DNA of 64,000 nt from a virus (IMGVR_UViG_3300037297_000195:1-64000), one strand, 5' to 3'. Numbered from the stretch's first letter, positions 48,606 through 57,042 are shown. Notes: generated by a model not told the origin, from the letters alone. Translations and numbers: made by a program.

Positions 48606-48866
48606 TTAATGCGGCCTGTCAATAGGATCTTCAGGTTCGGTTGGTTCAGGGGTAGGCGCGGGGCTAGGGCTAATATCCGGGCCATTAGCTGGTGTTTCCC
48701 CCTTGTGCGCTAAATATTCAGTATTTTTATAATATGGATTTTGGTATCTAATATTTCTTTGTTTGGGATAATCGAAAATATATCCAGACTTTGCCCTCGA
48801 AAACCATCCATGGGCGCATCCAGATAGACTAAAAACGATCATGAAGATAAAAATTATTTTTCTCAT
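48606..48866 (-). CDS. lipoprotein (signal peptide + lipobox)
   Basis: MRKIIFIFMIVFSLSGC has an L-S-G-C lipobox. The mature part is Pro/Tyr-rich. Confidence 0.65.
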   Translation of the reverse strand: MRKIIFIFMIVFSLSGCAHGWFSRAKSGYIFDYPKQRNIRYQNPYYKNTEYLAHKGETPANGPDISPSPAPTPEPTEPEDPIDRPH

Positions 48867-51800
48867 TATTTATGCTCCTTATAAAGATTAACAAAATTTT
48901 CAATACCCAATTCAAACGCTTCCCGGTTTGAATTGTTCCTCAAAACAGAGCTGGGATGCATCCCCCAACATACCCAAATTTTATATTTAGGAATATATTC
49001 TGTTGTTCCTGCCTTTTTTGTAATTCCCCCTTTCTCTCCCGTTAATGCAAATAATGGTATGTTCCCTAATGCCAAAACTAATGGGTTTTCCAATGAGATT
49101 AATTCATCTTTCAACCATTCCGAACATGCCTCAATATGCTCCTGCTGGGGTGTTTTGATTCGTTTTCCGGGATAGCATTTACACGTGTTCATCACGTGGA
49201 AAAGTTTTCTGATTAATTTGTATTTGCCAAACTCATCCCATAAAAGCTTACCCGCTTTCCCAATAAGATTTTTACCATCTCTATCCTCTTCCCATCCAGG
49301 AGCTTCGGCCAGAATTACGGCATTTGTCAAGCCAATTTCAGACAAGACAGGCTTTTTACACTCATCCCTCAGTTTACATTTTTCGCATTTCGATACTTTT
49401 TTGTTGATATATTTGATACCTCTTTTCACTTCAATTGGCGGCCTATTGCAATCAGGGAATTGGAAATCAAAATAATTAGCACATTGATCATTCGGCAATT
49501 TCGAACTATCATAGGCGTTAATACTTTTGAGAATCCCATCTATTGATGGGGATATACTTGGGGCCATATCAAAAAAGCCGGTCCTTTTTTTTGTTTTCAA
49601 TTTAGAACATTCAATGGCCGTTTTCTCTCCAATCCCTTTAATGGAGATAAATGGTGCAATTAATTTTCCATTTTTAGCAACCCAATGATGGGAATCGGAC
49701 AAATCAATTTTGGGTGCTAATATTTCAAGGTTAAGTCTGTTTGCTTCCTCTAATAATGATTCTTTTTGATCTTCCCTTCCATATGTCAAGGCAGAACAAA
49801 TAAATTCAACTGAATAATGGATTTTTAACCAAGCACACCAATAACCTAATAAGGCATAAGCGGTAGAATGGCTCTTATTAAAACTATAAGAAGCATGTTT
49901 TTTGATATCTTCCCAAAAATCTATCCCCTGTTGAATTGTTATCTTATCAAGCTTTTTAACGCCTTCCAAGAACTTTTTTCGATATGGTTCAAGTTTTTTT
50001 ACATCCTGTTTTTTTGCTAATATTTTTCTGATTTCTTCGGCTTCAGTTAAAGTCATTCCGGCAATTTTGTTTAAAAATTGCATGACTTGTTCCTGATAAA
50101 CAATTAATCCAAATGTATCTTTAGTAATTTCGTCATATTCAAAAGAGGATGAAGGTTCGTATAATTCACCATGCCGTCTTTCAATATACTTTTCCGTTAC
50201 TCCTGAATCAGCCGGTCCTGGACGAACAAGGGCAATGGCCGCAATCATATCGTTAAAATTTCTTGGCCTTAAATCCTTGGCTAATTTGGTCATGGCCCAT
50301 GTTTGCCACTGAAAAATACCAACCGTATTCCCTTCAGACAATTCAGAAAAAACTCTTTCATCGTTTAATGGAACATGAGGAAGCGATTTGTTAATGGGGC
50401 AAACATATTCAGATTCATGCATTAATGTTGATTCTTTATTGATGAAAATATGTTTGCCGTTAACAAGGAAAAAGCTATTCCCATAATTTTCTTTAATTAA
50501 ATCCAAAGCGCCATACAATACCGAAAGCGTATCCAGTCTTAATAAATCTAATTTTATTAATCCTAAATACTCGGTGTCATTCATTTCCCAATTAACAATT
50601 TTTTCGTTTTTCCTCTGAAGCAAAACGCCACGACCAGATTCATCAAGAGCATTGGGGGAAAGGATTAATGCAGCCGCATGTTGACCGGCCTGTCTTACAA
50701 CCCCTTCCAATTTAATAGCATGGTTGACAACCCGGTGATATTTTTTCTTAAATTGTTTGGCATTATCATCTTGTTCGCAATATGTTTTTAAAACCTGACC
50801 ATCTTCGGCAATGTCGTATGAAATGCCTTTAGCAAAATCATCAACTTCATCCAGATCAACACCAAATACCCTGGCCACATCACGGATAACCATTTTTGCT
50901 TTTGTGCGGCCAAAAGTTGAAATGCCAGCGATATTATTTTCACCATAAACGGTTTCCAGATGAGCTTTAACCAGATCCCTTTTTTGATCGCTGACGTCAA
51001 TATCAATATCCGGCCAGTCTTTACGATTTTCATTAATAAAGCGTTCAAAAATTAAATTATATTCAAGCGGATCTACTTGAGTAATTCCCAAAGCAAAGGC
51101 AACCAAGCTACCACCAACAGAGCCACGTCCAGGACCAATAGGTATTCCATTTTCCTTACTCCAATCAATCATATCTTTCACAATTAAAAAATATTTTGCA
51201 AATTCTTTTTTCTTAATAACAGACAATTCATATTTAATTCTGTTATTATAATCATCATACTGGAATTCATTTAGCCCAATTTCCTTAAGCCCTTGCCAAG
51301 TAAGCTTTTCTAATTCTCTCTGGATTATTGCTTCACTTTTCCCCTTGAATTTTGGTGGAGCGGGGATTGAAATTTCTTTCTTTTCTATCTCAAAATCAAT
51401 CATATCGGCTATCCTTTTTGTATTGCTGATAGCCTTCATATATTCTTTCTTGGTCCAGAAATTTTGGGCCTCAAAGGAATCCATCATTTCTTTTTTTGAT
51501 TTAAGATAAAATCCATCTGTTTTAAATCGGAATCTGTCTGGATCATTCCATGTTCGTTTAGTCTGAATTGCTAATAACACTTCATGAGTTTTGGTATCAT
51601 CTTCGTTAACATAATGACAGTCATTCGTAGCAACCAAGGGAGCATATGATTTTAATTCAGAAATAATTTCATGAATTTCTTTTTGAATCGGCAGAATATG
51701 AGGCATTATCTCAAGAAAAACCGGTATTTTTAGATCAACCATTTCAAGAAATAAATCTCTACCTTGTTCGTCATTAAGAAAAGATATGCCGCATCCGGTC

Positions 51801-52198
51801 AGAAATATTAAACCATCATTTTGTCTTGATGAAATATATTGCCTGATTAATGAGTAATCAATTCTTGGTTTTTTATAAAATCCCTCAAGGTTTGCCTTAG
51901 AAAGCATGTTACAAAGCGCTTTCCAGCCGGATTCATTTCTAATTAGAATTGTGATGTGATAACGGGTTTCCTTTTCTTTTTTAAATCGGTCAGGAACAAT
52001 ATAGGCTTCACATCCCAATATCGGTTTTATGCCAGCCTTTTTGCATTCAGATTGAAATTTAATTAAACCATCTATGTTCCCATGGTCCGTGCAAGCCAAA
52101 GCGCTCATGCCCAATTCTGAAGCCCTTTGAGCATATTTCTGAGCAGAACCAAGGCCGTCAAGGATGGAGTATTCCGTATGGACGTGTAGATGGATCAT
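48866..52198 (-). CDS. dnaE: DNA polymerase III alpha (DnaE-type) fused to C-terminal family-4 uracil-DNA-glycosylase-like domain
   Basis: PHP motif MIHLHVHTEYSILDG, polymerase core (GRGSVGGSLVAFALGIT, PDIDID) and HhH IKGIGEKTA. The last ~173 aa are CEKCKL..C...AVILAEAPGWEEDRDGKNLIGKAGKLLW...NTCKCYP...GMHPSSVLRN, the UDG family 4 pattern. Confidence 0.9.
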   Translation of the reverse strand: MIHLHVHTEYSILDGLGSAQKYAQRASELGMSALACTDHGNIDGLIKFQSECKKAGIKPILGCEAYIVPDRFKKEKETRYHITILIRNESGWKALCNMLSKANLEGFYKKPRIDYSLIRQYISSRQNDGLIFLTGCGISFLNDEQGRDLFLEMVDLKIPVFLEIMPHILPIQKEIHEIISELKSYAPLVATNDCHYVNEDDTKTHEVLLAIQTKRTWNDPDRFRFKTDGFYLKSKKEMMDSFEAQNFWTKKEYMKAISNTKRIADMIDFEIEKKEISIPAPPKFKGKSEAIIQRELEKLTWQGLKEIGLNEFQYDDYNNRIKYELSVIKKKEFAKYFLIVKDMIDWSKENGIPIGPGRGSVGGSLVAFALGITQVDPLEYNLIFERFINENRKDWPDIDIDVSDQKRDLVKAHLETVYGENNIAGISTFGRTKAKMVIRDVARVFGVDLDEVDDFAKGISYDIAEDGQVLKTYCEQDDNAKQFKKKYHRVVNHAIKLEGVVRQAGQHAAALILSPNALDESGRGVLLQRKNEKIVNWEMNDTEYLGLIKLDLLRLDTLSVLYGALDLIKENYGNSFFLVNGKHIFINKESTLMHESEYVCPINKSLPHVPLNDERVFSELSEGNTVGIFQWQTWAMTKLAKDLRPRNFNDMIAAIALVRPGPADSGVTEKYIERRHGELYEPSSSFEYDEITKDTFGLIVYQEQVMQFLNKIAGMTLTEAEEIRKILAKKQDVKKLEPYRKKFLEGVKKLDKITIQQGIDFWEDIKKHASYSFNKSHSTAYALLGYWCAWLKIHYSVEFICSALTYGREDQKESLLEEANRLNLEILAPKIDLSDSHHWVAKNGKLIAPFISIKGIGEKTAIECSKLKTKKRTGFFDMAPSISPSIDGILKSINAYDSSKLPNDQCANYFDFQFPDCNRPPIEVKRGIKYINKKVSKCEKCKLRDECKKPVLSEIGLTNAVILAEAPGWEEDRDGKNLIGKAGKLLWDEFGKYKLIRKLFHVMNTCKCYPGKRIKTPQQEHIEACSEWLKDELISLENPLVLALGNIPLFALTGEKGGITKKAGTTEYIPKYKIWVCWGMHPSSVLRNNSNREAFELGIENFVNLYKEHK

Positions 52199-52389
52199 TC
52201 TTTTTCGCTTTCATCATAAGCACGATGGGCTTTTTCATTTAAACATAAATTTGCCGAATTGATATAATGACAATTATAATAACAAAATGGCACAACTATT
52301 GGCTCATAAAAATCACAATTTCTTCCTCTCTCATTCAATGTTAAAGAACAAATATATATCCCTGTAATTGACTTCATACACCCATTCAT
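52195..52389 (-). CDS. Cys-rich mini-protein
   Basis: 64 aa with 6 Cys. ATGA overlaps. Confidence 0.4.
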   Translation of the reverse strand: MNGCMKSITGIYICSLTLNERGRNCDFYEPIVVPFCYYNCHYINSANLCLNEKAHRAYDESEKE

Positions 52390-52802
52390 TTCACTAACCC
52401 CATTTCTTTAAAACGAGCAAGATTTCTGGCTTCTCTTTCCAATATTTCATTCATTTCTTTCGTAATATCTTCTCCCTGATAATAAATAGGAATGTCATTT
52501 TGAAAGGCGAAATAAATTTCATTCTTGGTTTCTTCAGAATCAAATAAGGGGTAATCAAAAATAGTCAAAGCCAAAATATCAGACCGTTTAAGCAATTCCA
52601 AAGCCCCTTCAAGCCAAGCTTCATCCGGCAAAATGCCATCAAATAAAGCTGTATTCATATGCGGGCAGATAACTGTATAGCCTAATTCCCAATATTCTAT
52701 AGCCGTTTTTTCAGCCAACCTAATATTTTCAACGGTTTCCCTGATAGTATCCGCTCGATATGGGCCAGCAATGTAAACTACTTTTTCTCTTTTATTCCCC
52801 AT
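52386..52802 (-). CDS. nucleoside 2-deoxyribosyltransferase-like protein (DUF1937/DUF4406 type)
   Basis: VVYIAGPYRADT...AEKTAIEYWELGYTVICPHMN...LLKRSDILALT...ETKNEI..A.QNDIPIYY follows the YIAGPY...G..V.sP......cD.l.........E......PV pattern. Confidence 0.45.
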   Translation of the reverse strand: MGNKREKVVYIAGPYRADTIRETVENIRLAEKTAIEYWELGYTVICPHMNTALFDGILPDEAWLEGALELLKRSDILALTIFDYPLFDSEETKNEIYFAFQNDIPIYYQGEDITKEMNEILEREARNLARFKEMGLVK

Positions 52803-52978
52803 TCTTCACCTCCGATATGAGTAAAATTTTCATCAATTAATTCCCAAATTCTTTGTTGTTCTTCTGCATCTTCAGACTGGATATTTATTTCAAATATTTT
52901 GGATATAGGGCGTAATTCTACCCAATCATTCTCTACATACTCTTCACATTTTGTTTCTATATTATAATGCAAAATCAT
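52778..52978 (-). CDS. hypothetical protein
   Basis: 66-aa acidic ORF on the same strand, overlapping its neighbours. Confidence 0.4.
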   Translation of the reverse strand: MILHYNIETKCEEYVENDWVELRPISKIFEINIQSEDAEEQQRIWELIDENFTHIGGEEWGIKEKK

Positions 52979-53232
52979 TTCCCAACTCCAAACAGTCTTT
53001 TAATTAATTTACAATGTTTAAATAAATCACAATATTCTTTATCCCCTCTGACTTCCCCAACTGTCGCAAATTCTGTTTCTGATACCCTTCCATTTATAGG
53101 GTCGAAATATTCTCTCTTAGAAATGATCCTTTCTCTACATACATAAATATAGCTTGCGGAAAATTGATTATATTTTAGATCAAAACTTTTGCAATTAGCA
53201 CAAGCATTCACTTTATGTTTTTCTCTTTTCAT
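52975..53232 (-). CDS. Cys-rich mini-protein
   Basis: CANC...C...C pattern. ATGA overlaps. Confidence 0.4.
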   Translation of the reverse strand: MKREKHKVNACANCKSFDLKYNQFSASYIYVCRERIISKREYFDPINGRVSETEFATVGEVRGDKEYCDLFKHCKLIKRLFGVGK

Positions 53233-54266
53233 AACAACCTCTTTCCTCCCATTTTTTGGGCTTTAATTAAATTTCTTATTGCAGTGATATAATAACTTTT
53301 CTTTAGCTCAATCCCGATAAATTTTCTCCCCATTTTAATTGATTCATATCCTTCAGAACCAATACCGGCAAATGGGCTTAACACAATATCCCCCGGATTT
53401 GTCCAATAATGCAAACATCTTGCAATTGCTTGTAATTGAAGCGGCGCAATATGGCGTTCATCTTTTTTGTCTCTTGCTATTCTAATATTCAAAGTATCAG
53501 TCTGATCAATATCCATCCATACCGGATCTGCATAACGCCTAAAAACTTTTTGGCTATATCTATTTTTACCTTGTATATCATTTTTACTTTCAATCGGCTC
53601 TGGATCACTCCCAACATAATATTCAAAACCTCTACCATGAGAAACCGGCTCTAGGTTATCTCCCGGCTTTCTAAATGTCAGAATTTCATCCATAAATCCA
53701 TGATTACACCTGGCCGAATCTTTCACTAATTGTTTGTGCATTAATCCTAATGCTTTTGTTCGAACTGCCTGAATAAGCGGATCTTTCCAAATACCAACTT
53801 TTGAGTGGTATATGAAGTTTTGTTTTTCAAATAATCGAACAATCATGCCCGGAAAATCCTTAAGGCCAATCACTCCATCTTTCGCTAAACTCATTAACAC
53901 TATACTGCAATGAACACTCACTAATCTTCCAGGCATGATTACCCGAAATAATTCTGAAATTAAGTATTCGAAATGTTCGTAAAATTCACTATCTGTTTTT
54001 GAATTCCCCATATCCCTTTCATTGTCTGAATAAACATAAAGGGAAAGAAATGGAGGGGAAAATATTGAATAGTGGATTGAATTAGAAGGAATTCCTTTGA
54101 TAACTTCAACACAATCCCCTTGATATAAAGACCAGTTATCAGTTATTTTTTGGGAAATAACCTTAACATTTTTATCGTGTTTTTTGTGTTCAATATCAAA
54201 TAATTTTGCTTTTGCCTCAATTAATTTTGAACGGTAGAATTCAATTTCATCATAAATTTCTTGCAT
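53229..54266 (-). CDS. DNA methyltransferase, N6_N4 (beta-class) family, SPPF motif suggests N4-cytosine specificity
   Basis: Motif IV IFSPPF lies upstream of motif I DIVLSPFAGIGSEGYESIKMGRKFIGIEL. Confidence 0.75.
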   Translation of the reverse strand: MQEIYDEIEFYRSKLIEAKAKLFDIEHKKHDKNVKVISQKITDNWSLYQGDCVEVIKGIPSNSIHYSIFSPPFLSLYVYSDNERDMGNSKTDSEFYEHFEYLISELFRVIMPGRLVSVHCSIVLMSLAKDGVIGLKDFPGMIVRLFEKQNFIYHSKVGIWKDPLIQAVRTKALGLMHKQLVKDSARCNHGFMDEILTFRKPGDNLEPVSHGRGFEYYVGSDPEPIESKNDIQGKNRYSQKVFRRYADPVWMDIDQTDTLNIRIARDKKDERHIAPLQLQAIARCLHYWTNPGDIVLSPFAGIGSEGYESIKMGRKFIGIELKKSYYITAIRNLIKAQKMGGKRLL

Positions 54267-54275
54267 GTTAATTTC

Positions 54276-55433
54276 CTATCTTTTGTAATACCATTTATCC
54301 CAGTCCTTATCTGTCAAAAAACATTTTCCGTTTTTATTTAAAACGCTATCCTTGCTTTTAATCCAACTTTCAAATGTTTTATCCCCTCTATTATATCCAA
54401 ATGTTTGTCCCCAGTTTGAAAAAGCCTTTATTAAATTTTTAGTCCAATATTTGCCAACATAATCAAGTTTTTTATAAGTTTGATTCAATGGCCGATATCT
54501 CATTAGATATGGATTGTTTTTATACCTCCATGCTTGTTGTGCTCTATAATAAGCCTCTTGAGGGGTATCGTTAAAATTGAATAAAACATATGTATAAGAA
54601 TTCCCACTTATTCTAAATCCAACTTTTTGCATTAATTCCATTGCTTTTTGATAATGACCATCATCTGACATCCGATCAAAAGCCGTTCTAAATCCATGTC
54701 TAATATAAGATAAAGATGCTAATAATTTAGCATTTTCTTTATTAATTAATTTACAATCAACCCCATTATTAAAAATAACTTTCTTCTTTCTTTCATTCAA
54801 AAGATTGATTACGTTTTTAACGTGTTCTGAAGGCGACACTAAAAAATTATTATCAGAAACAACGCATACTTCTCTATCTGATTCAATAATATTTTTATCC
54901 CAATTTTCAAGAATGTGGAATTTAGGTTCCATTCTCCATACCATACAATAGCCGCATTTATTTGGGCAGCCCCTTGTGGTAAATAGTGTTATGCAATTAT
55001 TGAAAAAGCCTTTTATGTTATAATCCAGCGAATAATCTGGCAAATATGAATCAATAATATCAGAACAATTAACAAATACTTTTGCTCTTCTCGTATTCTT
55101 AATTATATACTCCGGCATTAAAGAGGCAAAAATACCGCCAACCAGGATATCAACATCTTTCAAAAATAAACTTCTTTCAATTTCATTAATTGTTTTTAAA
55201 ACAGTTTTGGCATCATTAGTAAAACAAGTTGACACACATATTAAATCCAATTCTTCTTGATATCTTGGGTAATTGTCAAAATAAACTTCTTTGCCATGAT
55301 CTTTTAAAAAGGACGATATTTTAGCTAAACCAAGAGGAATATAAACCCTTCGATATGGTGGTTCGATAAGTTGAACTTTTTTTGATTTTTTCAACCTATC
55401 TATTAATTGGTTTTCATCAATTAGCCTGCCCAT
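54276..55433 (-). CDS. radical SAM enzyme with N-terminal B12-binding-like domain
   Basis: TTRGCPNKCGYCMVW is CxxxCxxC. N-terminal VQLIEPPYRRVYIPLGLAKISSFLKDHGKEV resembles the Rossmann-like domain of class B radical SAM enzymes. Confidence 0.7.
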   Translation of the reverse strand: MGRLIDENQLIDRLKKSKKVQLIEPPYRRVYIPLGLAKISSFLKDHGKEVYFDNYPRYQEELDLICVSTCFTNDAKTVLKTINEIERSLFLKDVDILVGGIFASLMPEYIIKNTRRAKVFVNCSDIIDSYLPDYSLDYNIKGFFNNCITLFTTRGCPNKCGYCMVWRMEPKFHILENWDKNIIESDREVCVVSDNNFLVSPSEHVKNVINLLNERKKKVIFNNGVDCKLINKENAKLLASLSYIRHGFRTAFDRMSDDGHYQKAMELMQKVGFRISGNSYTYVLFNFNDTPQEAYYRAQQAWRYKNNPYLMRYRPLNQTYKKLDYVGKYWTKNLIKAFSNWGQTFGYNRGDKTFESWIKSKDSVLNKNGKCFLTDKDWDKWYYKR

Positions 55434-55474
55434 CCCGGTAATACCATCCTTTCTATTTCATTAATTAGATTCAT

Positions 55475-55663
55475 TTATCTATTCCTTGCAACAACATCTA
55501 ACCCATTTTCTTCTGCCCATTCAAGTAAATTTTGATAATCTTTAATTAGCTCTTCTATCAAATCGGCAGCAGCTAATCTTGCCTCTTTTGCTTTATTATA
55601 CCCTTGTCCATACGGATTTCTTAATATTGCTAATAACTTTTTAGTATCACATTTTAAATCCAT
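55475..55663 (-). CDS. hypothetical protein
   Basis: 62-aa helical ORF that overlaps the end of the SNF2 gene. Confidence 0.4.
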   Translation of the reverse strand: MDLKCDTKKLLAILRNPYGQGYNKAKEARLAAADLIEELIKDYQNLLEWAEENGLDVVARNR

Positions 55664-57042
55664 CCCGGCAATACCATCCTTTCTTCGGCTTCATATTTTT
55701 TTGTTCCAGAAATCTTTTCCCCTAAATTATGTCTCGTTATATCGACCGTATATTTAACCATATTTCTCAGCATTGATTGAGCCATTCTATCTTTCCTTTT
55801 GACATTTTCCAGAACTTTCCCTTCTCTTTCCTCAATCACGATATGGGCTTCTACCGGCCTTTTCTGCCCAAAACGCCATACCCTTCGTGTTGATTGAAAT
55901 AACTGTTCAAAGGAATCATTTAGGCCAACATAGATTATTTTGTTGCAGTTTTGCCAGTTCATTCCATGCCCACATATGCCCGCCTTGCTGATAAGTCTTT
56001 TGACTTTTCCTTCACTAAATCTGAGCATATATTTCGCCTTGGTTTCATTCGATTGACTTCCGGTAACCTCTTTCCCATCATTAATTAATTTTGCTAATAA
56101 TTCACTTTCTCCATTCAACCCGCACCAAATAATCCATTGATCATTGTCTGAATTAACTATTTCAGCCGCTTTCTCGCATCGAACTTTAATCGTTTCTCTT
56201 CTGACTCTTAGTCTTTCAGATAATGTTTCGGCTTTTTGAACAAAAAATCCACCACCTGTATTAGTGGCCGGGATAATATGTTCAATATAGTTTAATGGAG
56301 GTAAATCATATCCATCTTGTTCAAAACCAATATCCTTTGGGTGAGCAAACATAACCGCCCAGGAACATAACCATTCCCAAAAATCGCTTTCCTTGGCATG
56401 TTTTTTTAATCTCCATTGGCCCACATCCGAAGGATCGTTAACGAAAAACATAGAAAGCATTTCGGTATAGGTCATCACTCCAAGATATTCGGCGTGATTC
56501 CCTAATTCCATCTCGTCATTTGGAGACGGAGTAGCAGAACAAGCAAGGCGATAAAGGGTATAGAAAAATGCTTCTATAATTTTATTTCTTATTACCCCTG
56601 CCATGTTTTTAAGTATAGAACATTCATCTAGGCAAACTGCAATAAACCTTTTTGAATTAATTTTATGAAGTTTTTCATAGTTGATTATATTGATCCCATT
56701 AATCACATCTTTATCTGATGTAATCACCTTGCATTCAATCCCAAGTTTTTGTTTAGTGTATCCGAACTTTTCTCCCTCCCGTTTAGTCTGTTCCGATACC
56801 GCCAAAGGAGCGACGATTAAGACCGGTTCATTTTCTTTTTTGTTTATTTGGCGGCACCATTCCAATTGTTGAATTGTTTTCCCACATCCGGTTCCTTCAA
56901 ACAGACAAGCCCTTCCTTTCCTTAATGCCCATCTAACAATGGCTTTTTGAAATGGGAATAGTTTGGGGTTAATCTCATCAGGTTCAAATCCGATTGACTC
57001 GAAATAGATTTGTTTCTGTTTTAGGAATTCTTGATATTTCAT
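55654..57042 (-). CDS. SNF2/DEAD-like superfamily-2 helicase
   Basis: EGTGCGKT (motif I), VCLDECS (II), CSATPSPND (III), and GHGMNWQ...FQSTRRVWRFGQKRPV (V/VI). Confidence 0.85.
   Translation of the reverse strand: MKYQEFLKQKQIYFESIGFEPDEINPKLFPFQKAIVRWALRKGRACLFEGTGCGKTIQQLEWCRQINKKENEPVLIVAPLAVSEQTKREGEKFGYTKQKLGIECKVITSDKDVINGINIINYEKLHKINSKRFIAVCLDECSILKNMAGVIRNKIIEAFFYTLYRLACSATPSPNDEMELGNHAEYLGVMTYTEMLSMFFVNDPSDVGQWRLKKHAKESDFWEWLCSWAVMFAHPKDIGFEQDGYDLPPLNYIEHIIPATNTGGGFFVQKAETLSERLRVRRETIKVRCEKAAEIVNSDNDQWIIWCGLNGESELLAKLINDGKEVTGSQSNETKAKYMLRFSEGKVKRLISKAGICGHGMNWQNCNKIIYVGLNDSFEQLFQSTRRVWRFGQKRPVEAHIVIEEREGKVLENVKRKDRMAQSMLRNMVKYTVDITRHNLGEKISGTKKYEAEERMVLPGWI

What the first reader, a model, noticed from the sequence alone, without database searches (positions are those of the whole stretch)
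52386..57042. B12-type radical SAM + SPPF (m4C-type) methyltransferase + NDT-like protein + SNF2 helicase next to the polymerase: candidate DNA hypermodification / anti-restriction cluster
The transcription order on the minus strand is:
- SNF2 helicase (55654..57042)
- a 62-aa ORF
- a radical SAM enzyme with CxxxCxxC (TTRGCPNKCGYC) and an N-terminal B12-binding-like domain (54276..55433)
- a beta-class N6_N4 DNA methyltransferase with IFSPPF (53229..54266), the motif-IV variant seen in N4-cytosine enzymes such as M.PvuII
- two small Cys-rich ORFs
- a nucleoside 2-deoxyribosyltransferase-like protein (52386..52802)
- the DnaE-UDG fusion

All junctions are overlaps or very short gaps.

Radical SAM enzymes take part in known phage thymidine hypermodification pathways and in 7-deazaguanine synthesis (QueE). 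This one is of a different type (class-B-like), and no thymidylate-synthase-like or Que genes are present in the window.

I infer that the cluster installs a non-canonical base modification, for example C-methylation or further processing of a methylated base.
Basis: partly seen in the sequence, partly recalled or inferred. Interest (0 to 1): 0.62.

Follow-up and report, generated by a model that had tools for sequence, protein, structure and literature searches.

The report
Radical SAM partner of phage methylases
A complete uncultured phage genome carries, inside a well-known helicase plus DNA-methylase gene pair, an uncharacterised radical-SAM enzyme whose relatives sit next to, and are sometimes fused into, DNA cytosine methylases, so it probably makes a still unknown DNA base modification in phages of oxygen-free habitats.

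Summary
The gene string is real at the stated coordinates. The window is 64 kb of a complete 70,487-bp phage genome with terminal repeats.

SNF2 helicase plus FSPPF amino-methyltransferase is a known kind of module, the phage "methylase-helicase dyad". It occurs in hundreds of cultured phages without any radical SAM gene.

The new part is the radical SAM (rSAM) protein (phrog_9298, no published function):
- Invariant CxxxCxxC, no auxiliary-cluster cysteines, a cobalamin-domain-like Rossmann N-domain. The closest solved fold is MiaB.
- A DNA methyltransferase is its immediate neighbour in 21 of 70 non-redundant viral loci.
- 17 loci hold SNF2, FSPPF methylase and rSAM in three gene orders.
- At least 16 relatives are in-frame fusions with C5-cytosine methyltransferases, including an rSAM domain inserted between motifs VIII and IX.
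- Hosts and genomes are mostly anaerobes.

Limits:
- No chemistry is shown.
- Some complete phages carry the rSAM without a PF01555 or PF00145 methylase.
- The NDT-like (DUF4406/DUF7768) gene and the small ORFs are not conserved parts.
- This genome has no C5 methylase, TS-like, TGT, FolE or TAGT gene.

It is a candidate oxygen-independent DNA hypermodification enzyme. This scan met the same rSAM family before on other DNA.

The parts
55654..57042 (-). SNF2/ResIII-type ATPase-translocase, 462 aa. It is the helicase half of a methylase-helicase dyad. Walker A is GTGCGKT, motif II is DECS, motif VI is QSTRRVWRFGQ.
   Evidence: The same family is fused to the FSPPF methylase in L042, L068, L033, L127 and vir525.
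55475..55663 (-). 62-aa orphan ORF that overlaps the SNF2 stop by 10 nt. No conserved homologue was found in related loci.
54276..55433 (-). Radical SAM enzyme, 385 aa, family phrog_9298. Residues ~18-125 form a Rossmann domain with an SxL...GG cobalamin-domain-like signature. The rSAM core carries C156/C160/C163. The C-terminal helical tail is basic.
53229..54266 (-). Beta-class N6_N4 DNA methyltransferase, 345 aa, with motif IV FSPPF and motif I FAGIGS. It is the methylase half of the dyad and the only PF01555 or PF00145 methylase in the genome.
52975..53232 (-). 85-aa Cys-rich orphan ORF (5 Cys), not conserved in relatives.
52778..52978 (-). 66-aa orphan ORF with one Cys, so not Cys-rich. 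Not conserved in relatives.
52386..52802 (-). Small NDT-like protein, 138 aa, of the DUF4406/DUF7768 family. It recurs beside methylases and methylase-helicase genes, but within the rSAM loci examined it was seen only in L008.
52195..52389 (-). 64-aa Cys-rich orphan ORF coupled to dnaE.
48866..52198 (-). DnaE-type polymerase with a C-terminal UDG-like domain. It is a neighbour in the replisome gene block, not part of the modification module.

Best explanation
The string is a known anti-restriction module with an uncharacterised radical SAM enzyme inserted between its two halves.

The known module is an SNF2 translocase plus a beta-class FSPPF DNA amino-methyltransferase, a 'methylase-helicase dyad'. 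The dyad most likely tracks along phage DNA and methylates it. This step is inferred from homology. The target base is possibly cytosine-N4, judged from motif IV only.

The rSAM binds one [4Fe-4S] cluster through C156/C160/C163 and, like all rSAM enzymes, makes a 5'-deoxyadenosyl radical. This follows from sequence, fold and family knowledge. I infer that its substrate is a DNA base at or beside the methyltransferase's target, because in sister lineages the same domain is fused to, or inserted into, C5-cytosine methyltransferases.

The product would be a further-modified (hypermodified) cytosine made without oxygen. It could arise by C-methylation through cobalamin or by functionalising the methyl group. 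This last step is speculative.

The NDT-like protein is a frequent companion of phage methylases with unknown role. The small ORFs are orphans.
For: Anatomy and family membership.

The rSAM family:
- 374 clusters at 50% identity reach E<=1e-30, and none carries an informative name.
- Invariant C156/C160/C163.
- High-confidence model. The best PDB fold is MiaB, a nucleic-acid-modifying rSAM, at E 1e-9 and TM 0.61. The N-domain matches corrinoid-binding domains.
- Median pI is 9.15.

Linkage to methyltransferases:
- In 70 de-duplicated loci a PF01555 or PF00145 methylase is the immediate neighbour in 21. The methylase position counts are -1:11, +1:10, -2:5, +2:1.
- With one representative per 50% rSAM cluster, 6 of 20 have an adjacent methylase against 2.2+-1.3 for a random gene in the same loci, P=0.01.
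- An independent set from bacterial and archaeal genomes shows the same pattern.
- SNF2, FSPPF methylase and rSAM occur together in 17 loci, in three gene orders, and in both DnaE-type and PolA-type phages.

Fusions with C5 methyltransferases:
None is fused to any other recognised domain.
- Three were verified on DNA: C5[I-VIII]-rSAM-C5[IX-X] in one chain (L215); a split methylase whose closing part hangs on the rSAM (L216); and a complete C5 methylase followed by rSAM (L217).
- The fusions are scattered over several branches of the tree, and the window clade is nested among them.
- The window rSAM is 39% identical over its full length to a fused rSAM domain.

Other points:
- Inteins sit in the rSAM in several relatives, as is common for DNA-metabolism genes.
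- Remote plasmid relatives sit next to DpdB/DndB-like DGQHR proteins.
- The dyad is described in PMC5512222.
Against: - No chemical or sequencing evidence of a modified base exists.
- The window genome has no C5 methyltransferase, and no rSAM fusion with an N6_N4 methylase or SNF2 was found. The link for this particular partner therefore rests on adjacency only.
- The dyad exists in 366 cultured phage records, while the rSAM matched only 13 phage records.
- Distant rSAM homologues occur in two complete phage genomes without a PF01555 or PF00145 gene.
- About two thirds of the loci have no adjacent methylase.
- Divergence of the rSAM and of the methylase is only weakly correlated (rho 0.35, not significant). 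This fits swappable cassettes, as earlier follow-ups of this scan concluded.
- The best fold match, MiaB, acts on tRNA, not DNA.
Confidence: 0.5

Rival explanations
1. The genes are independent accessory genes sharing a slot. The dyad methylates DNA on its own. The rSAM does something unrelated to it, for example modifying tRNA or rRNA as MiaB does, or acting on a small molecule or protein. It sits beside methylases only because phage accessory genes collect at the same places.
For: - The best fold match is the tRNA enzyme MiaB.
- The rSAM stands alone in Marinitoga camini virus 1 and in phiCT453B, which lack PF01555 and PF00145 genes.
- Methylase type and gene order vary, and co-divergence is weak.
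- Bacteroides phage BI-TP1 has RtcB and ASCH genes nearby.
- Two earlier follow-ups in this scan read the genes as swappable cassettes.
Against: - In-frame fusions, and an insertion of the rSAM domain inside C5 DNA methyltransferases, occur in at least 16 proteins, in three topologies, on several branches.
- Methylases peak sharply at +-1.
- The three-Cys auxiliary cluster and TRAM domain that define MiaB-type enzymes are absent.
Confidence: 0.22
2. The rSAM is an oxygen-independent repair or erasing enzyme, a functional analogue of AlkB or TET for anaerobes. It would remove aberrant methyl lesions that the partner methyltransferase makes off-target, or erase methyl marks, rather than build a new base.
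For: - It is linked to methylases of several classes: C5, N6_N4 and UPF0020-type.
- Hosts are mostly anaerobes, where Fe/2OG dioxygenases cannot work.
- From general knowledge, C5 methyltransferases make 3mC as a by-product and co-evolve with ALKB2 in eukaryotes.
Against: - A repair enzyme has little reason to be inserted at the target-recognition position of a methyltransferase.
- No rSAM demethylase or repair precedent exists apart from spore photoproduct lyase, which was not among the fold matches.
Confidence: 0.1
3. The whole string from SNF2 to the NDT-like gene, including the small Cys-rich ORFs, is one dedicated multi-step hypermodification pathway.
For: - The genes are tightly coupled, with no convincing terminator between them.
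- An NDT-like gene follows the SNF2-methylase genes in L008 and in vir525, and lies beside methylases in other cultured phages.
- An earlier first-reader note of this scan lists the same four components on other DNA.
Against: - The small ORFs have no homologues in any related locus. Of the 17 trio loci (which do not include the window itself), none scored an NDT-like gene at that call's threshold; a weaker match follows the methylase in L008.
- An HD-like gene takes that position in L009 and L010, and lies between the methylase and DnaE in L004.
- The NDT-like family is common in 211 phage records with no rSAM link.
Confidence: 0.08

Closest known systems
DNA methylase-helicase dyad of phages, plasmids and conjugative elements (archetype P1 DarB; Iyer et al. 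2017, PMC5512222)
   Same: An SWI2/SNF2-type ATPase is coupled to a DNA amino-methyltransferase, either by gene neighbourhood or by fusion. The same two families are fused in L042, L068, L033, L127 and vir525. The presumed role is protection of incoming or replicating DNA from restriction.
   Different: Here the order is helicase then methylase, whereas DarB-type proteins have the methylase first. Motif IV is FSPPF rather than D/NPPY. The genes lie in the replisome operon, not among virion genes. An rSAM gene is wedged between the two halves.
Phage C5-methyltransferase + TET/JBP dioxygenase + glycosyltransferase clusters that hypermodify 5mC (Burke et al. 2021, PMC8256090)
   Same: The logic is the same: a DNA methyltransferase coupled to a second enzyme that could act on the methylated base. 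TAGT (TET-associated glycosyltransferase) genes lie within 3 kb of the rSAM in relatives L010, L014, L018 and L128.
   Different: There is no TET, no C5 methylase and no TAGT in this genome. The partner enzyme is an oxygen-sensitive rSAM rather than an oxygen-dependent dioxygenase. None of the 80 best TAGT loci carries the rSAM.
MiaB-type methylthiotransferases (PDB 7MJZ and related entries)
   Same: Best overall fold match (E 1e-9, TM 0.61): an N-terminal Rossmann-like domain followed by an rSAM barrel, and a nucleic-acid substrate.
   Different: The three-Cys auxiliary [4Fe-4S] site is missing (only C66 is partly conserved). There is no TRAM domain. Sequence similarity is not significant (profile E>1).
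Class B (cobalamin-binding domain) radical SAM enzymes, COG1032 (e.g. TsrM, TokK, Fom3, BchE, HpnR)
   Same: An N-terminal Rossmann domain with the PLGLAKI and SxL...GG signatures. There are weak Pfam B12-binding and NCBIfam B12-rSAM hits. The N-domain superposes on corrinoid-binding domains.
   Different: All scores lie below the curated cut-offs. No solved class B enzyme is among the top 50 fold matches. Short family members lack the first beta-alpha unit. Cobalamin binding is untested.
Split C5 methyltransferases such as M.AquI (two polypeptides)
   Same: In relatives (L216, P0176, P0201, P0205) the C5 methylase is split after motif VIII, and the closing part (motifs IX-X) is on a second polypeptide.
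   Different: The closing part is fused behind a complete rSAM domain, so the rSAM would be built into the methylase holoenzyme. This arrangement is not present in the window itself.

Membership tests
Radical SAM superfamily (PF04055) | CxxxCxxC motif that ligates a [4Fe-4S] cluster | tested here: met
   C156-x3-C160-x2-C163 is invariant in 37 of 37 aligned sequences and nearly invariant in 69.
Radical SAM superfamily (PF04055) | Score over the Pfam gathering cut-off, or the partial TIM-barrel fold | tested here: met
   The Pfam score of 28.6 is just under the 29.5 cut-off. The pLDDT-92 model matches MiaB, LIAS and lysine 2,3-aminomutase with probability 1.0.
Class B cobalamin-dependent radical SAM | N-terminal cobalamin-binding Rossmann domain | tested here: inconclusive
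   PF02310 scores 23.5 against a 32.1 cut-off. The N-domain matches corrinoid proteins 4jgi, 1y80, 4r3u and 2yxb, and the SxL...GG signature is conserved. No solved class B rSAM is among the top 50 fold matches.
Class B cobalamin-dependent radical SAM | Actual binding and use of cobalamin | not testable with these tools
   Needs a cofactor analysis of the purified protein.
Methylthiotransferases (MiaB/RimO/MtaB) | Three conserved Cys in the N-domain for the auxiliary cluster | tested here: not met
   Outside the rSAM motif only C66 is conserved: near-invariant in the 37-row alignment and 30 of 69 in the wider set.
Methylthiotransferases (MiaB/RimO/MtaB) | C-terminal TRAM domain | tested here: not met
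   The C-terminus is helical in the model (H332-382), and there is no TRAM hit.
Beta-class N6_N4 DNA methyltransferase (PF01555) | Family HMM over the cut-off, with motif IV before motif I | tested here: met
   62.8 bits against a 26.7 cut-off. FSPPF is at residue 70 and FAGIGS near residue 300.
N4-cytosine-specific methyltransferases | SPP[FY] motif IV, and demonstrated m4C product | tested here: inconclusive
   FSPPF is present in all 12 SNF2-linked methylases listed. The best PDB relatives are mixed: TTHA0409, CcrM (m6A), N4CMT and M.PvuII. The product is untested.
Methylase-helicase dyad (PMC5512222) | SWI2/SNF2 ATPase coupled to a DNA amino-methyltransferase by fusion or conserved neighbourhood | tested here: met
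   SNF2 and the methylase are adjacent or fused in 17 loci and in many cultured phages.
TET-type 5mC hypermodification cluster (PMC8256090) | C5 methyltransferase, TET/JBP dioxygenase and glycosyltransferase in the genome | tested here: not met
   The complete genome has no PF00145 and no PF20691 gene. Tet_JBP was not searched in this genome. Where it was searched, its control did not ring.
Thymidine hypermodification pathways (PMC8989533) | TS-like dUMP hydroxymethylase that supplies 5-hmdU | tested here: not met
   No PF00303 gene in the complete genome.
7-deazaguanine DNA modification (DpdA/TGT, FolE, QueE) | TGT/DpdA transglycosylase and FolE | tested here: not met
   No PF01702 and no PF01227 gene in the genome.
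Nucleoside 2-deoxyribosyltransferase-like clan | Family HMM match | tested here: inconclusive
   phrog_355 scores 1.5e-12. DUF7768 scores 22.9 against a 26 cut-off. Homologues carry DUF4406, DUF7768 and DUF1937. There is no PDB sequence match, and catalytic residues were not examined.

The most novel reading that the evidence does not exclude
This rSAM family is the first radical SAM enzyme that works directly on DNA bases as a built-in partner of DNA methyltransferases. It would give phages of anaerobes an oxygen-independent route to a hypermodified cytosine, for example ethyl, hydroxymethyl or doubly methylated cytosine. That would make it the anoxic counterpart of the TET-based pathway, and in some lineages the product would then be glycosylated by TAGT enzymes.
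Probability: 0.35. Interest if true: 0.9.

Novelty: new variant of a known kind. Interest (0 to 1): 0.7.

Why it matters
Known post-replicative hypermodification of phage DNA built on methylation uses oxygen-dependent TET dioxygenases. Nothing comparable is known for the very large virome of anoxic habitats such as gut, sediments, digesters and methanogenic consortia.

This rSAM family has hundreds of sequence clusters. It is tied to DNA methyltransferases genetically and, in relatives, physically. It is a concrete, clonable candidate for a new DNA base and a new enzyme activity.

Such a base could matter in three ways:
- it could affect restriction and other DNA-targeting defences;
- it could bias sequencing of anaerobic viromes;
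- it could supply a new tool enzyme for site-specific DNA derivatisation, because the fused forms inherit the sequence specificity of a methyltransferase.

Tried and rejected
- Near-identical DNA in the phage collection: none.
- Sequence and profile searches of the rSAM against PDB chains: nothing significant.
- PADLOC: no defence-family match for the rSAM or the NDT-like protein.
- MiaB-type methylthiotransferase membership: rejected, because there are no auxiliary-cluster cysteines and no TRAM domain.
- Apparent long 'fusions' in L034, L023, L041 and L016: these were over-extended ORFs, not fusions.
- Fusions of the rSAM with N6_N4, SNF2 or ParB domains: none found.
- Co-divergence of rSAM and methylase: weak.
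- TAGT lead: TAGT is present in 4 of 50 rSAM-bearing viral records, plus L128. The reverse test failed, since none of the 80 best TAGT loci holds the rSAM. TAGT records also lack TS-like genes, so TAGT is not a reliable marker of hmC here.
- Tet_JBP searches rang nowhere, including in the controls, so they say nothing.
- Literature searches found no paper on this family or on rSAM::C5-methylase fusions. The Thermus phage rSAM/DUF483 module (PMC11437467) is a different locus type.

Full report
**Observation.**
- SNF2 helicase, 55654-57042.
- A 62-aa ORF.
- rSAM, 54276-55433, containing TTRGCPNKCGYC.
- N6_N4 methyltransferase, 53229-54266. IFSPPF (motif IV) comes before FAGIGS (motif I), which is the beta-class order.
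- Small ORFs of 85 and 66 aa.
- An NDT-like protein, 52386-52802.
- A 64-aa ORF.
- A DnaE with a C-terminal UDG domain, 48866-52198.

Family scans confirm the identities. Junctions are overlaps of 4-25 nt or gaps of 9 and 41 nt. The simple consensus scan lists only weak terminator-like matches inside the string, about as many in the region as shuffles give. Only one of the two small ORFs between the methylase and the NDT-like gene is Cys-rich.

The window belongs to a complete 70,487-bp virus record with direct terminal repeats. That genome has no C5 methylase, thymidylate-synthase-like gene, TGT/DpdA, GTP cyclohydrolase I or TAGT gene. The cluster methylase is its only PF01555 gene.

**The known part.** SNF2-type ATPases coupled to DNA amino-methyltransferases, by fusion or by conserved neighbourhood, are a described theme of phages and conjugative elements. 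It is called the "methylase-helicase dyad", with P1 DarB as archetype, and is proposed to protect DNA from restriction (PMC5512222).
- The window's methylase family occurs in 366 cultured phage records, typically beside or fused to a helicase. The rSAM matched only 13 phage records.
- All 12 SNF2-linked methylases listed carry FSPPF.
- This motif is typical of N4-cytosine enzymes, but the nearest solved relatives are of mixed specificity. The target base remains open.

**The rSAM protein.**
- It belongs to phrog_9298 (6e-40). The family is large and carries no informative name: 374 clusters at 50% identity reach E<=1e-30 and 1,567 reach E<=1e-10.
- C156/C160/C163 are invariant. No other cysteine is conserved across the family. 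This excludes a MiaB-type auxiliary cluster and a Cfr/RlmN-type cysteine pair.
- An AF2 model with pLDDT 92 shows a Rossmann N-domain, an rSAM barrel and a helical, basic C-terminal tail (tail pI 9.7; family median pI 9.15).
- The best solved fold is MiaB (E 1e-9, TM 0.61). The N-domain alone superposes on corrinoid-binding domains. No solved class B rSAM is among the top 50 matches.
- The SxL...GG signature of cobalamin domains (F71-T72, G99-G100) is among the best conserved features. It survives even in 270-310-aa members that lack the first beta-alpha unit.
- 'B12-like' is therefore a fair description of the fold, but cobalamin use is not established.
- Cultured hosts, and most of the genomes that carry the close family, are anaerobes: Marinitoga, Clostridium tetani, Bacteroides, Methanomassiliicoccales, Syntrophorhabdus, Brocadiaceae, Sporomusa and others.

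**Linkage to methyltransferases.** I fetched 80 viral loci, called genes, and built domain HMMs in the sandbox.
- Among 70 loci de-duplicated at 90% rSAM identity, a PF01555 or PF00145 methyltransferase is the immediate neighbour in 21.
- The methylase position counts are -1:11, +1:10, -2:5, +2:1, with only 0-3 at each position further out.
- Pfam scanning of the unlabelled neighbours adds UPF0020- and Eco57I-type methylases. The official gene calls add L005 and L006.
- With one representative per 50% rSAM cluster, 6 of 20 have an adjacent methylase, against 2.2+-1.3 for a random gene in the same loci (P=0.01).
- An independent set of loci from bacterial and archaeal assemblies shows the same tendency.
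- SNF2, FSPPF methylase and rSAM lie together in 17 loci, in three gene orders. This holds in both a DnaE-type phage and a PolA-type phage. In three of the loci (L033, L042/L043, L127) SNF2 and the methylase are one polypeptide.
- The window's own clade (99% SH-aLRT support) always has SNF2-rSAM-methylase.

**Fusions.** The profile search produced long proteins that are in-frame fusions of this rSAM with C5-cytosine DNA methyltransferases.
- A second search gave more.
- Three were checked on their contigs:
  - L215 is a single 778-aa chain, C5[motifs I-VIII]-rSAM-C5[IX-X].
  - L216 is a split methylase. Gene 1 carries motifs I-VIII, with a Hint intein in motif IV. Gene 2 is rSAM followed by the rest of the target-recognition region and motifs IX-X. 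An active methylase would therefore have the rSAM built in.
  - L217 is a complete C5 methylase followed by the rSAM, next to a ParB_N gene.
- In L004, L022 and L027 a 172-181-aa C5 piece holding only motifs I-VIII precedes the rSAM.
- On a quick tree the fusions fall in at least six separate places. The window clade is nested within this C5-associated radiation.
- The window protein is 39% identical over its full length to a fused rSAM domain.
- Inserting a domain at the target-recognition position of a base-flipping enzyme is hard to explain unless the rSAM acts on, or right beside, the flipped base.

**What argues for caution.**
- No fusion with an N6_N4 methylase or SNF2 was seen, and the window genome has no C5 methylase. 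For this phage the link is by neighbourhood and by homology to fused forms.
- Distant homologues stand alone in two complete phage genomes without PF01555 or PF00145 genes.
- About two thirds of the loci show no adjacent methylase.
- Divergence of the rSAM and of the methylase is poorly correlated. The partners are therefore exchanged often, as earlier follow-ups in this scan also concluded.
- The NDT-like protein belongs to DUF4406/DUF7768. It is common in 211 phage records, and some of those lie beside methylases. It follows an SNF2-methylase fusion in vir525. Among the rSAM loci it appears only in L008.
- The small ORFs have no homologues in related loci.

**Leads on the product.**
- TAGT (TET-associated glycosyltransferase, 120 bits) lies within 3 kb of the rSAM in L010 and L128, both in the window's clade, and in L014 and L018.
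- L014 also holds a second rSAM and a sugar-nucleotide epimerase.
- TAGT occurs in 4 of 50 rSAM-bearing viral records, against 25 of 50,697 cultured phage records.
- The reverse test fails. None of the 80 best TAGT loci has the rSAM, 32 have a ParB-like gene, and none of 43 TAGT records has a TS-like gene. The Tet_JBP searches are uninformative.
- I treat an 'anoxic TET analogue' as an attractive but unproven special case.

**Comparison and verdict.**
- The dyad is already known.
- The rSAM is an uncharacterised family for which I found no paper.
- This scan has met the family before on other DNA, with the same general impression. I re-tested adjacency, fusion and the anaerobe distribution here.
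- The most likely reading (about 0.5) is a DNA-base-modifying rSAM that works with a methyltransferase.
- The main rival (about 0.2) is an unrelated accessory enzyme.
- The chemistry, the base and the biological effect all need experiments.

Noticed in passing
Genome 67933-69540 and 66767-67651 (beyond the window end, same contig): A second, canonical SNF2 ATPase (535 aa; DEPGLGKT, DEAH) and a zinc-finger/Toprim-type primase lie upstream in the same minus-strand block. The SNF2 next to the rSAM is therefore not the phage's only SNF2 protein.
   Followed up: no
L133-L212 (80 TAGT loci in viral contigs): The TAGT glycosyltransferase is accompanied by a ParB-like protein in 32 of 80 loci. None of 43 TAGT records has a TS-like hydroxymethylase, and Tet_JBP was not detected (its control was silent). 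The source of the TAGT acceptor base in these phages is unexplained.
   Followed up: partly
L014:521-7848: A possible fuller hypermodification cluster: NAD-dependent sugar epimerase/dehydratase ... rSAM (this family) - ParB-like - a second, different rSAM (Radical_SAM + Fer4_12, 460 aa) - TAGT, just upstream of the terminase.
   Followed up: partly
L213:6000-10140 (pNL1 of Novosphingobium aromaticivorans) and L214:4947-9188 (Rhizobium leguminosarum plasmid): Remote relatives of the rSAM (23-24% identity over ~88% of the query; 537-543 aa) sit in a conserved cassette on conjugative plasmids of aerobic alpha-proteobacteria: DGQHR (DpdB/DndB-like) - rSAM - ATP-binding protein. PIN-like plus ATPase genes lie beside it. 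The cassette is not in PADLOC.
   Followed up: partly
P0181, P0189, P0243, P0283; L216:4202-6004; L004:9071-11443; L126:6355-9903: Inteins are frequent in this gene set. Four rSAM representatives carry inteins, with HNH or LAGLIDADG domains in three of them, beginning near the cluster-binding site. There is also a Hint intein inside motif IV of a C5 methylase, one in an SNF2 helicase and one in a DnaE.
   Followed up: no
L126:1-381: A close relative (rSAM 56% identical) carries a GTP cyclohydrolase I gene a few genes upstream of clamp-SNF2-methylase-rSAM. This hints at a 7-deazaguanine pathway in that phage. It is absent from the window genome.
   Followed up: partly
L087:1-4111 (Dulem virus 39): The gene order is C5 cytosine methylase - PAPS-reductase-like protein - rSAM homologue - metallo-beta-lactamase-fold protein, with an SNF2 helicase plus FSPPF methylase pair 2 kb downstream. 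Bacteroides phage BI-TP1 also has a PAPS-reductase-like gene near its rSAM.
   Followed up: no
Only the 85-aa (52975-53232) and 64-aa (52195-52389) ORFs are Cys-rich.
   Followed up: yes
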